DNA of 64,000 nt from Escherichia coli (lineage in GTDB: Bacteria; Pseudomonadota; Gammaproteobacteria; Enterobacterales; Enterobacteriaceae), in the NCBI RefSeq assembly GCF_003334355.1, contig NZ_QOWP01000002.1. The stretch is one strand, 5' to 3'. The translations under genes and the position numbers were made by a program. Shown one piece after another: positions 4,095-17,101 of the stretch. Numbering within the stretch: position 1 is the stretch's first letter; the number at the start of each line of letters is the position of its first letter. The notes beneath the pieces are model-generated. The model was not told the DNA's origin, did not search any database, and saw nothing but the letters and a program-made list of their open reading frames with translations.

Positions 4095-4205
4095 CTTTGC
4101 GGCATCGGGCAATGCGTGTCGGATGCGGCGTAAACGCCTTATCCGACCTACGGTTCTACCCCTGCGTAGGCCTGATAAGACGCGCCAGCGTCGCATCAGG
4201 CAAGA
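4095..4205. repeat. REP/BIME repetitive extragenic palindromic elements
   Basis: Intergenic GCCGGATGCGGCGTAAACGCCTTATCCGACCTACG-type motifs between cvpA and dedD. Confidence 0.5.
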
Positions 4206-11138: not shown

Positions 11139-13312
<2,174 letters not shown>

Positions 13313-13504
13313 TTACTCCAGAATGCAGCGCAAGGCGAGGAGTATCCCCGTCTCATCTCTCTGGTTTCAGGGTTACGGTGCGTTGGCAGGATTTAACGCG
13401 TACGTCTTTTCAGAAGGAAATCGACAAAGCGGGAAGTTTGCCTGGAACAGGCGGCGATTGTCAATGATGTGAAAAAGGGAACCATCAGGTTCCCTTTTGC
13501 GTTA

Positions 13505-13600
13505 GTGCCGGAGGCCGCATTAGCGCGTAACGTCGGATGCGACGCTGGCGCGTCTTATCCGACCTACTCCGACTACTCCGACTACTCCGGCCTACTGCGA
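13505..13600. repeat. REP element with short tandem 9-mer (CTACTCCGA x3)
   Basis: CGTCTTATCCGACCTACTCCGACTACTCCGACTACTCCGGCCTAC immediately downstream of the fabB stop. Confidence 0.45.
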
Positions 13601-13601
13601 A

Positions 13602-14822
13602 TTAATCTTTCAGCTTGCGCATTACCAGCGTGGCGTTGGTGCCGCCGAAGCCGAAGCTGTTAGACATAACGGTGGTCAGTTCGCGATCGGTCGTTTCGGT
13701 CACGATGTTCAGACCTGCAGCCTGCTCGTCCAGCTCTTCAATGTTGATGCTCGGGGCGATAAAGCCGTGTTCCAGCATCAGCAGAGAGTAGATAGCTTCC
13801 TGTACGCCAGCAGCGCCCAGAGAGTGACCGGTCATGGCTTTGGTTGCAGAAATCGCCGGGCTCTTATCGCCGAACACTTCACGGATAGCTGCCAGTTCTT
13901 TCACGTCGCCAACCGGAGTCGAAGTACCATGAGAGTTCAGGTAATCGATTGGGGTATCAACGCCGTGCATCGCCATCTTCATGCAGCGTACTGCGCCTTC
14001 GCCAGACGGAGCAACCATGTCTGCACCATCAGAGGTTGCGCCGTAGCCAACGATTTCAGCATAGATGTGAGCACCACGCGCCAGCGCGTGTTCCAGCTCT
14101 TCAACCACTACCATACCGCCGCCGCCAGCGATAACGAAACCGTCACGGTGAGCGTCGTAAGTACGGGAGGCTTTTTCCGGGGTGTCGTTGTATTTAGTAG
14201 ACAGCGCACCCATCGCGTCGAATTCGCAGGCCATTTCCCAGCACAGCTCTTCGCCGCCGCCAGCAAACACGATGTCCTGTTTGCCCAGTTGGATCTGCTC
14301 TACTGCGTTACCGATACAGTGTGCGGAAGTCGCACACGCGGAGCTGATGGAGTAGTTAACGCCATGAATTTTAAACGGGGTGGCGAGGCAGGCAGAAACG
14401 CCGGATGCCATCGCTTTGGTGACCACATACGGGCCAACCGCTTTCAGGCCGCGCGGGCCGCGCATTGCGTCAGCGCCGAACACCTGGAAACGCGGGGAGC
14501 CGCCGCCGGAACCTGCAATCAGGCCAACGCGCGGGTTATTCTGGTAAGCTTCCGGAGAGAGGCCCGCATCTGCGATTGCCTGCTCCATAGAAAGGAATGC
14601 ATAAATGGATGCGTCGCTCATAAAGCGCACAACTTTGCGGTCAATGAGGCCAGTGGTATCCAGTTTTACGTTGCCCCAGACGTGGCTACGCATGCCGGAA
14701 TCCTTCAGCTCCTGAGAGAAAGTGATCCCTGAACGTCCTTCACGCAGAGATGCCAGGACTTCCTGCTGGTTATTACCGATGCTGGAAACAATGCCCAGGC
14801 CAGTAATCACTGCACGTTTCAT
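13602..14822 (-). CDS. fabB: 3-oxoacyl-ACP synthase I (KAS I)
   Basis: 406-aa ORF with thiolase-fold condensing-enzyme motifs (active-site Cys, [16 protein letters not shown]). Confidence 0.95.

Positions 14823-17000: not shown

Positions 17001-17101
<101 letters not shown>

What the first reader, a model, noticed from the sequence alone, without database searches (positions are those of the whole stretch)
13563..13590. Triplicated 9-mer embedded in a REP element downstream of fabB
CTACTCCGA occurs three times in tandem inside an otherwise typical REP sequence. It is probably a slippage product, but could be a strain-typing marker or affect fabB transcript stability.
Basis: seen in the sequence. 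Interest (0 to 1): 0.12.

Follow-up and report, generated by a model that had tools for sequence, protein, structure and literature searches.

The report
Variable short repeat beside fabB REP
A 9-base repeat sitting between the end of the fatty-acid gene fabB and a common bacterial hairpin element (REP) is real and varies from 0 to 6 copies among 5,426 E. coli genomes, but it looks like an ordinary replication-slippage product with no demonstrated function.

Summary
The repeat is real but slightly misdescribed. CTACTCCGA occurs twice exactly (13564-13581). The third copy is CTACTCCGG (13582-13590). In a wider register the array is four 9-10-nt units (13558-13595). Each unit is the REP's 3' foot (TCCGA) plus CTAC, the conserved GTAG of REPs on the fabB sense strand. 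The array lies between the REP hairpin (13532-13563) and the fabB stop codon, in the fabB 3' UTR, not inside the hairpin.

Copy number is clearly polymorphic, with 0 to 6 CTACTCCGA units. The window's length class is in 317 genomes (99 identical). About 57% of genomes, K-12 included, have no expansion. Identical 745-nt flanks carry 4, 5 or 6 copies, so the array changes faster than point substitution. It is nevertheless stable in laboratory lineages.

The unexpanded state already has TCCGA repeated 10 nt apart, which is a slippage substrate. E. albertii and a cryptic-clade Escherichia have 10-nt-unit expansions at the same site. Other REPs in the window show no stutter.

Predicted RNA folds keep a stem 3 nt after the stop codon in every allele, and added units behave like shuffled inserts. 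Verdict: an ordinary, probably neutral VNTR of low interest.

The parts
13558..13600 (-). Tandem array. On the + strand it reads TCCGAC-CTAC / TCCGA-CTAC / TCCGA-CTAC / TCCGGC-CTAC / TGCGA (partial). On the fabB sense (minus) strand each unit is GTAG plus the 5' foot of the REP stem.
   Evidence: allelic series
13532..13563 (-). REP palindrome (Y-type core GATGCGACGCTGGCGCGTCTTATC with a variant foot GTCGGA/TCCGAC). Arms are 13532-13545 and 13550-13563, 86% complementary, with a 4-nt loop.
   Evidence: I2. One search gives the published Y-type REP query GCCTGATGCGACGCTGGCGCGTCTTATCAGGCCTACG.
13564..13567 (-). CTAC, which is the conserved GTAG tetranucleotide of the REP on the minus strand. It is the first CTAC of the array, and its CT is where IS621 is inserted in strain LP5-1.
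   Evidence: GTAG and CT roles from PMC8266576 and PMC11208160
13507..13531 (-). Degenerate partial copy of the REP 5' half (13509-13528 is 70% identical to 13534-13553). Its GCCGGAG pairs with CTCCGGC of the last repeat unit (13585-13591) to form the outer stem that encloses the REP and the array.
   Evidence: (D2, I1); absent in L022
13473..13498 (-). Perfect 11-bp hairpin (AAAAGGGAACC/GGTTCCCTTTT) followed by a T run on the minus strand. This is the likely intrinsic terminator of fabB.
   Evidence: (I3), folds. It was not picked up by the simple terminator scan, so it is inferred from sequence.
13602..14822 (-). fabB (beta-ketoacyl-ACP synthase I, 406 aa). Its stop codon is at 13602-13604, 6 nt from the array.
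   Evidence: RefSeq annotation
12131..13309 (-). yfcJ (MFS transporter), the next gene downstream on the same strand.
   Evidence: annotation

Best explanation
This is a short variable-number tandem repeat (VNTR) in the fabB 3' untranslated region. It was created and is resized by slipped-strand mispairing during replication at the edge of a REP element. In the unexpanded allele the REP's 3' foot TCCGA happens to recur right after the REP's CTAC (…TCCGAC-CTAC-TCCGA-ATTAA). That gives a 5-nt direct repeat 10 nt apart, next to a hairpin-forming palindrome. Misalignment between these copies duplicated the 10-nt unit. One unit then lost a C, and the resulting 9-nt unit CTACTCCGA was amplified stepwise. 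The window carries two exact 9-nt units plus the flanking 10-nt variants. Shown: the array, its polymorphism, its faster turnover than flanking substitutions, and its recurrence in other Escherichia. Inferred: slippage as the mechanism, and selective neutrality. The array probably does nothing beyond lengthening the 5' arm of an extended 3'-UTR hairpin.
For: There is a stepwise allelic series of 0-6 CTACTCCGA units with otherwise identical context. Counts over 5,426 genomes are 655/1064/317/86/110/9/6, with nothing longer than 7 units against a 13-unit synthetic query. L015, L025 and L013/L014 have 0 differences in 745 nt of flank yet carry 4, 5 and 6 copies. One yfcJ protein allele (WP_000127789.1) occurs with three different array lengths. 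The single-unit allele already contains TCCGA…TCCGA 10 nt apart (L006, L009). E. albertii has 2 and Escherichia sp. E1V33 has 3 perfect 10-nt units at the same place, while E. whittamii has one. K-12 has a 10-nt loss in a shifted register (GCGTC-TAC-TCCGAC-CTAC-TGCGAA), as expected from misalignment between units. Other REPs in the window that end in CCGACCTAC or CAGGCCTAC but are followed by unrelated sequence show no stutter. For neutrality: the outer stem starts 3 nt after the stop codon in all alleles, the REP core hairpin is retained, and the free-energy gain of added units equals that of shuffled inserts for N<=3. No Rfam family reaches threshold.
Against: Slippage was not observed directly. 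Lab-derived lineages show no change (E. coli W, KO11FL and LY180 are all 4-copy; four EC0880B derivatives are all 6-copy), so the rate is not high. Each unit contains GTAG and CT, the recognition and cleavage motifs of the REP-associated transposase, so an enzymatic origin is not excluded. Some sharing of alleles across haplotypes could come from recombination rather than recurrent slippage. For N=4 and N=6 the real repeat folds 2-3 SD better than shuffled inserts, because the units pair weakly with each other. No expression data were available.
Confidence: 0.8

Rival explanations
1. The units are footprints of the REP-associated tyrosine transposase (TnpA_REP/RAYT). The enzyme recognises GTAG plus the hairpin and cuts at CT. 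Abortive cleavage and rejoining on single-stranded DNA would duplicate or delete the segment between successive CT/GTAG motifs.
For: Every unit is GTAG plus the 5' foot of the REP stem on the REP's canonical strand and contains CT dinucleotides. GTAG is indispensable for E. coli TnpA_REP, and cleavage occurs at CT 5' or 3' of the REP (PMC8266576). The same CT is used by IS621 in strain LP5-1, so this junction is recombinationally active.
Against: None of the four other REPs in the window shows a stutter. The locus has its own slippage substrate. Units of both 9 and 10 nt and a register-shifted deletion in K-12 fit misalignment better than site-specific cutting. No such RAYT product is described in the papers read ('slippage' 0 and 'duplication' 1 occurrence).
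Confidence: 0.06
2. The array is a selected, evolvable tuner of FabB expression. By moving the REP core hairpin away from the stop codon (10 nt in unexpanded alleles; 20, 29, 38 … 74 nt with units) it would relieve REP-induced ribosome stalling, or it would alter 3'-end protection of the fabB mRNA.
For: REPs fewer than 16 nt from a stop codon are reported to down-regulate translation (Liang et al. 2015, as summarised in PMC12306157). REPs can act as 3'-UTR terminators and stabilisers (bioRxiv 10.64898/2026.03.23.713779). The stop-to-REP-core distance crosses that 16-nt limit between the single-unit and expanded alleles.
Against: In every allele, including the REP-less one, a predicted stem begins 1-3 nt after the stop codon, so the structure met by the terminating ribosome barely changes. 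Stability gains equal shuffled-insert controls for N<=3. Allele frequencies fall off with length as expected for a drifting VNTR. A strong terminator follows anyway. There are no expression data.
Confidence: 0.07
3. The diversity is produced mainly by homologous recombination or gene conversion, either between strains or between REP copies, that shuffles a few old alleles, rather than by ongoing unit gain and loss.
For: The 109-nt allele sits on two different flanking haplotypes (L005 and L012). L004 and L011 have identical flanks but differ at several positions in the REP-like segment left of the REP.
Against: Recombination cannot create the stepwise 3-4-5-6 series seen on flanks that are identical over 745 nt and share a private REP SNP, GTAGGATGCG. 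Independent expansions with a different unit length occur in other species.
Confidence: 0.05
4. Sequencing or assembly artefact in the window's genome.
For: Short tandem repeats can be miscounted in some assemblies.
Against: The window's exact 95-nt allele is present in 99 independent complete genomes, and its length class in 317. The whole series is reproduced across hundreds of assemblies from different laboratories and platforms.
Confidence: 0.01

Closest known systems
Bacterial VNTR / minisatellite loci used in MLVA typing
   Same: Both are head-to-tail short units in intergenic DNA. Copy number differs among strains in single-unit steps, changes faster than flanking substitutions, and is stable over laboratory passage.
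   Different: This locus was not found in the literature searched: there were no papers with the sequence, and the gene-name search returned nothing relevant. The array is short (at most 7 units) and has mixed 9- and 10-nt units. It is built from the tail of a REP element rather than from anonymous sequence.
REP / BIME elements of E. coli (Y-type REP with GTAG tetranucleotide)
   Same: The adjacent 32-nt imperfect palindrome with the GATGCGACGCTGGCGCGTCTTATC core, the flanking GTAG, the extragenic 3'-UTR position and the multicopy nature are all typical REP features.
   Different: A normal REP has one GTAG and one foot. Here GTAG plus foot is reiterated up to 8 times on one side, and the 5' half of the REP is partly duplicated on the other side. 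The repeat is a local secondary mutation, not part of the REP family consensus.
Phase-variable simple-sequence contingency loci (e.g. in Haemophilus, Neisseria)
   Same: Both show slippage-driven copy-number change of a short tandem repeat.
   Different: Contingency loci lie in coding regions or promoters, switch expression on and off, and mutate at high rates. This array is in a 3' UTR after the stop codon, has a unit length that is irrelevant to reading frame, and did not change in lab-derived lineages.
REP-proximal translational down-regulation (Liang, Rudd and Deutscher 2015)
   Same: A REP lies 10 nt after the fabB stop codon in unexpanded alleles, within the reported <16-nt range.
   Different: fabB was not found in the papers available. 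The effect was not tested here. The expansion moves the REP core but leaves a predicted stem next to the stop codon.

Membership tests
REP (repetitive extragenic palindrome), E. coli Y-type | Imperfect GC-rich palindrome of about 30-35 nt with internal mismatches/bulge | tested here: met
   Arms 13532-13545 and 13550-13563, 14 nt, 86% complementary, 4-nt loop. The core is identical to the published Y-type REP query sequence.
REP (repetitive extragenic palindrome), E. coli Y-type | Conserved GTAG tetranucleotide immediately 5' of the palindrome | tested here: met
   CTAC at 13564-13567 on the + strand is GTAG on the minus strand, directly abutting the stem. The role of GTAG is from PMC8266576.
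REP (repetitive extragenic palindrome), E. coli Y-type | Extragenic and present in many copies per genome | tested here: met
   It lies between the fabB stop codon and the terminator. There are four further REP tails in the 64-kb window against 0.16 expected. Extra partial matches per genome were seen (median 2 places).
VNTR (variable-number tandem repeat) | Head-to-tail copies of one unit | tested here: met
   TRF period 9, 3.4 copies, 95% matches; exact adjacent copies.
VNTR (variable-number tandem repeat) | Copy number differs among strains at the same locus | tested here: met
   0-6 units in 655/1064/317/86/110/9/6 of 5,426 genomes; sequences read.
VNTR (variable-number tandem repeat) | Changes by replication slippage (unit gain or loss observed in a clonal line) | not testable with these tools
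   Only indirect evidence: identical flanks carry 4, 5 or 6 copies. Lab-derived lineages show no change.
Phase-variation contingency locus | Repeat located in a coding region or promoter so that copy number switches expression | tested here: not met
   The array lies after the fabB stop codon and before the terminator. No promoter-like site was found in 13250-13700.
REP acting as translational down-regulator (REP <16 nt from stop) | REP stem begins fewer than 16 nt after the stop codon | tested here: inconclusive
   The REP core stem is 38 nt from the stop in the window allele and 10 nt in single-unit alleles, but a predicted outer stem starts 3 nt after the stop in all alleles.
Rfam naRNA4 (REP325-derived RNA) | Score at or above the family gathering threshold | tested here: not met
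   41.5 bits against a gathering score of 59.5 at 13488-13564 on the + strand. This reflects REP-pair likeness only.

The most novel reading that the evidence does not exclude
The array is not neutral. By reiterating GTAG plus foot it sets the distance between the fabB stop codon and the REP core, and it lengthens the 3'-UTR hairpin. That would give E. coli lineages a heritable, stepwise-adjustable dial on FabB output, and hence on unsaturated fatty-acid content. The units might also be written by the REP-associated transposase rather than by polymerase slippage.
Probability: 0.05. Interest if true: 0.45.

Novelty: new member of a known kind. Interest (0 to 1): 0.12.

Why it matters
It matters little for biology as it stands. 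It is a clean, well-populated example of how a chance direct repeat next to a REP hairpin seeds a small VNTR, with a full 0-6 copy series in public genomes. Practically, it is a cheap PCR-sized marker. It separates O157:H7 (N=0), K-12 (a register-shifted single unit), the E. coli W lineage (N=4) and others, and it flagged a probably mislabelled 'DH5alpha' assembly. It also offers a natural allelic series, including REP-less and IS621-disrupted alleles, for anyone wishing to test how REP position in a 3' UTR affects expression of an essential gene.

Tried and rejected
- **Rfam scan of 13250-13750:** it gave only a sub-threshold naRNA4 (REP-derived) hit. No RNA family explains the array.
- **Literature search for the repeat sequence on either strand:** nothing was found.
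- **Search on fabB/yfcJ/tandem repeat:** it returned only irrelevant papers because of word-start matching.
- **Liang et al. 2015:** the paper could not be read. Its claim is cited second-hand from PMC12306157.
- **First REP pattern:** it had a wrong spacer length and found nothing. A shorter tail pattern replaced it.
- **First folding script:** it timed out and was rerun more lightly.
- **Identity bands from long queries:** these could not give allele counts, because gapped and split alignments mix classes. They were replaced by allele-specific queries with E-value cut-offs.
- **Idea that the expansion frees the stop codon from nearby structure:** rejected as the main reading, because an outer stem stays 3 nt from the stop in all alleles.
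- **Idea that added units specifically stabilise the hairpin:** rejected for N<=3 by the shuffled-insert control.
- **Idea that the REP-less allele is the ancestral empty site:** rejected, because all Escherichia outgroups carry the REP and its flanks equal those of a REP-bearing strain.
- **Simple terminator scan:** it did not list the 13473-13498 hairpin, so the terminator call rests on the sequence and folds.

Full report
**What is in the sequence**

The + strand at 13550-13607 reads GCGTCTTATCCGAC CTACTCCGA CTACTCCGA CTACTCCGG CCTACTGCGAA TTA. CTACTCCGA is exact at 13564-13572 and 13573-13581. The third unit, 13582-13590, ends in G instead of A. TRF reports 13558-13589 with period 9, 3.4 copies, 95% matches and score 55. 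That is the second-best array in the whole window. The 9-mer is expected 0.25 times per 64 kb, so the tandem arrangement is not chance.

In the register TCCGA(C)-CTAC the array has four units (13558-13595, of 10+9+9+10 nt) and then a partial TGCGA.

**Context**

- fabB is the 406-aa minus-strand ORF 13602-14822.
- yfcJ is the next minus-strand ORF, 12131-13309. RefSeq annotation of matching records confirms both.
- Between them, on the fabB sense strand, the order is: stop codon, 6 nt, the array, a REP palindrome (13532-13563; 14-nt arms, 86% complementary, 4-nt loop), a degenerate partial copy of the REP's 5' half (13509-13528, 70% identical to 13534-13553), and a perfect 11-bp hairpin with a T run (13473-13498) that is the likely terminator.
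- The REP core GATGCGACGCTGGCGCGTCTTATC is identical to a published Y-type REP.
- On the sense strand each repeat unit is GTAG plus the 5' foot of the REP stem. The array therefore abuts the REP and reiterates its edge. It is not inside the hairpin.

A megablast of 13440-13700 against 5,426 complete E. coli genomes hit every genome. Locus spans were 261, 253, 252, 243, 233 and 200 bp. Reading representatives gave a clean series:

- the REP 3' arm;
- then CCTACTCCGA;
- then (CTACTCCGA)×n;
- then CTACTCCGG;
- then CCTACTGCGAATTAA.

In total there are 0, 1, 2 (the window), 3, 4, 5 or 6 CTACTCCGA units.

Further allele types also occur:

- single-unit alleles (…CCGAC-CTAC-TCCGAATTAA);
- a K-12 allele that has lost 10 nt in a shifted register (GCGTC-TAC-TCCGAC-CTAC-TGCGAA);
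- alleles made of 10-nt units (L004);
- an allele with three exact 9-mers (L026);
- a REP-less allele (L011).

Synthetic queries with 7 and 13 units showed that 7 units (297 bp) is the maximum in the collection.

Identity bands from long queries mix classes. I therefore used allele-specific queries of 77-113 nt, with E-value cut-offs placed between the full-length score and the best score a ±9-nt allele can reach. The counts are:

| Class | Genomes | Source |
|---|---|---|
| N=0 | 655 | |
| N=1, including the 253- and 249-bp variants | 1064 | |
| N=2, the window's class (99 identical to the window over 95 nt) | 317 | |
| N=3 | 86 | |
| N=4 | 110 | |
| N=5 | 9 | ranking |
| N=6 | 6 | ranking |
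| REP-less | 105 | |
| IS621-disrupted | 2 | |
| Single-unit alleles (remainder, 56.6%) | about 3,072 | by subtraction |

The remainder agrees with two evenly spaced samples of the rankings. Of the single-unit genomes, 1,290 are ≥99% identical to the K-12 allele. 'Invariant copy number', the stated refutation, is clearly not the case.

**Tempo**

- L015, L025 and L013/L014 have no difference in 745 nt of flank and share a private REP SNP (GTAGGATGCG), yet carry 4, 5 and 6 units.
- One YfcJ protein allele occurs with three array lengths.
- The array therefore turns over faster than point substitution.
- It is not hypermutable. E. coli W, KO11FL and LY180 all have 4 units, and four EC0880B derivatives all have 6.

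**Origin**

The single-unit allele already contains TCCGA twice, 10 nt apart (TCCGAC-CTAC-TCCGA). By chance, the sequence after the REP's CTAC repeats the REP foot. That is a classical substrate for slipped-strand mispairing, and it sits next to a hairpin-forming palindrome.

A species-level scan returned six loci, five of them Escherichia. Four were informative for the repeat:

- E. albertii has two perfect 10-nt units.
- Escherichia sp. E1V33 has three perfect 10-nt units.
- E. whittamii and a divergent E. coli have one unit each.

The REP is therefore ancestral at this site. Expansion has happened more than once, with 10-nt units outside E. coli and a derived 9-nt unit inside it. The four other REP tails in the window are followed by unrelated sequence and show no stutter. 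All of this points to local slippage rather than a REP-wide process.

**Possible function**

I folded the fabB 3' UTR of every allele.

- All alleles, including the REP-less one, have a stem beginning 1-3 nt after the stop codon.
- In expanded alleles this stem is GGCCGGAG paired with CUCCGGC on the far side of the REP.
- The REP core hairpin and the terminator hairpin are kept.
- The stop-to-REP-core distance grows from 10 nt (single unit) to 20, 29, 38 (the window) and up to 74 nt.

REPs closer than 16 nt to a stop codon are reported to reduce translation (Liang et al. 2015, as summarised in PMC12306157). REPs can also act as 3'-UTR terminators and stabilisers. A regulatory effect is therefore conceivable.

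Two results argue against it. The structure next to the stop codon hardly changes. The extra stability of added units equals that of shuffled inserts of the same composition for N≤3. For N=4 and N=6 there is only a trivial gain, from units pairing with each other. No Rfam family reaches threshold. I therefore take the array to be neutral, with modest probabilities for a tuning role or a RAYT-mediated origin. The RAYT idea rests on each unit carrying the GTAG and CT motifs that the E. coli REP transposase needs.

**Comparison and novelty**

This is a REP (membership features met) with a secondary VNTR at its edge (VNTR features met). It is not a contingency locus, because it lies after the stop codon and is stable in lab lineages. 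It is not a member of any Rfam family. I found no paper containing the repeat sequence. It is thus an undescribed but ordinary VNTR locus, a new member of a known kind.

**Verdict**

Biological interest is low (0.12).

Noticed in passing
L018 (NZ_CP101866.1, strain LP5-1) about 1590-2930; corresponds to window 13565/13566: An IS621 (IS110-family, bridge-RNA recombinase) copy is inserted exactly at the CT of this REP's CCTAC. The junctions are …TTATCCGACCT|TGTATTATCC… and …ACAGTATCT|ACTCCGACTACTCCGA…. The site ATCCGACCTAC differs at two positions from the published natural target ATCAGGCCTAC. Only 2 of 5,426 genomes have it, both pigeon isolates of identical size.
   Followed up: partly
L011 (NZ_AP041125.1); corresponds to window 13532-13565: A REP-less allele (GCGTAAC-CACTCCGAATTAA) is present in 105 of 5,426 genomes. 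Its 745-nt flanks are identical to those of L004, which has the REP plus three 10-nt units. All Escherichia outgroups have the REP. It is therefore a derived, nearly precise loss of the REP, not an empty ancestral site. The mechanism was not examined.
   Followed up: partly
window 13509-13528 vs 13534-13553: The segment left of the REP is a 70% copy of the REP's 5' half at 25-nt spacing, so the REP has been partly duplicated on this side too. The segment is absent in L022 (E. coli E69, a separate GTDB species), which has a single REP.
   Followed up: partly
L001 (K-12 MG1655 2440251-2440483): The K-12 allele is not the simple single-unit form. It reads GCGTC-TAC-TCCGAC-CTAC-TGCGAA, which is the N=0 allele minus TTATCCGACC. 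This changes the REP's own 3' arm (TCTTATCCGAC becomes TCTACTCCGAC).
   Followed up: no
NZ_CP026085.1 (H149): An assembly labelled 'DH5alpha' (4.83 Mb) carries the 4-copy, 279-bp allele typical of E. coli W-like strains, not the K-12 allele. It is probably mislabelled.
   Followed up: no
L024 (NZ_PVBM01000121.1, 410 bp): A 410-bp low-coverage contig in a Neorhizobium huautlense assembly contains the K-12-type E. coli fabB 3' end and REP tail. This is almost certainly contamination.
   Followed up: no
window 13488-13564 (+): Sub-threshold Rfam match to naRNA4 (REP325-derived RNA), 41.5 bits against a gathering score of 59.5. It reflects the REP-pair-like arrangement only.
   Followed up: no
window 42815-42856: This is the highest-scoring tandem repeat in the window: period 18, 2.3 copies, 87% matches, TRF score 63. 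It was not examined.
   Followed up: no
window 4117-4201 and 17006-17085: Two BIME-like pairs of inverted REPs (tails CTTATCCGACCTAC / CTTATCAGGCCTAC) with no tail stutter. They were used only as local controls.
   Followed up: partly
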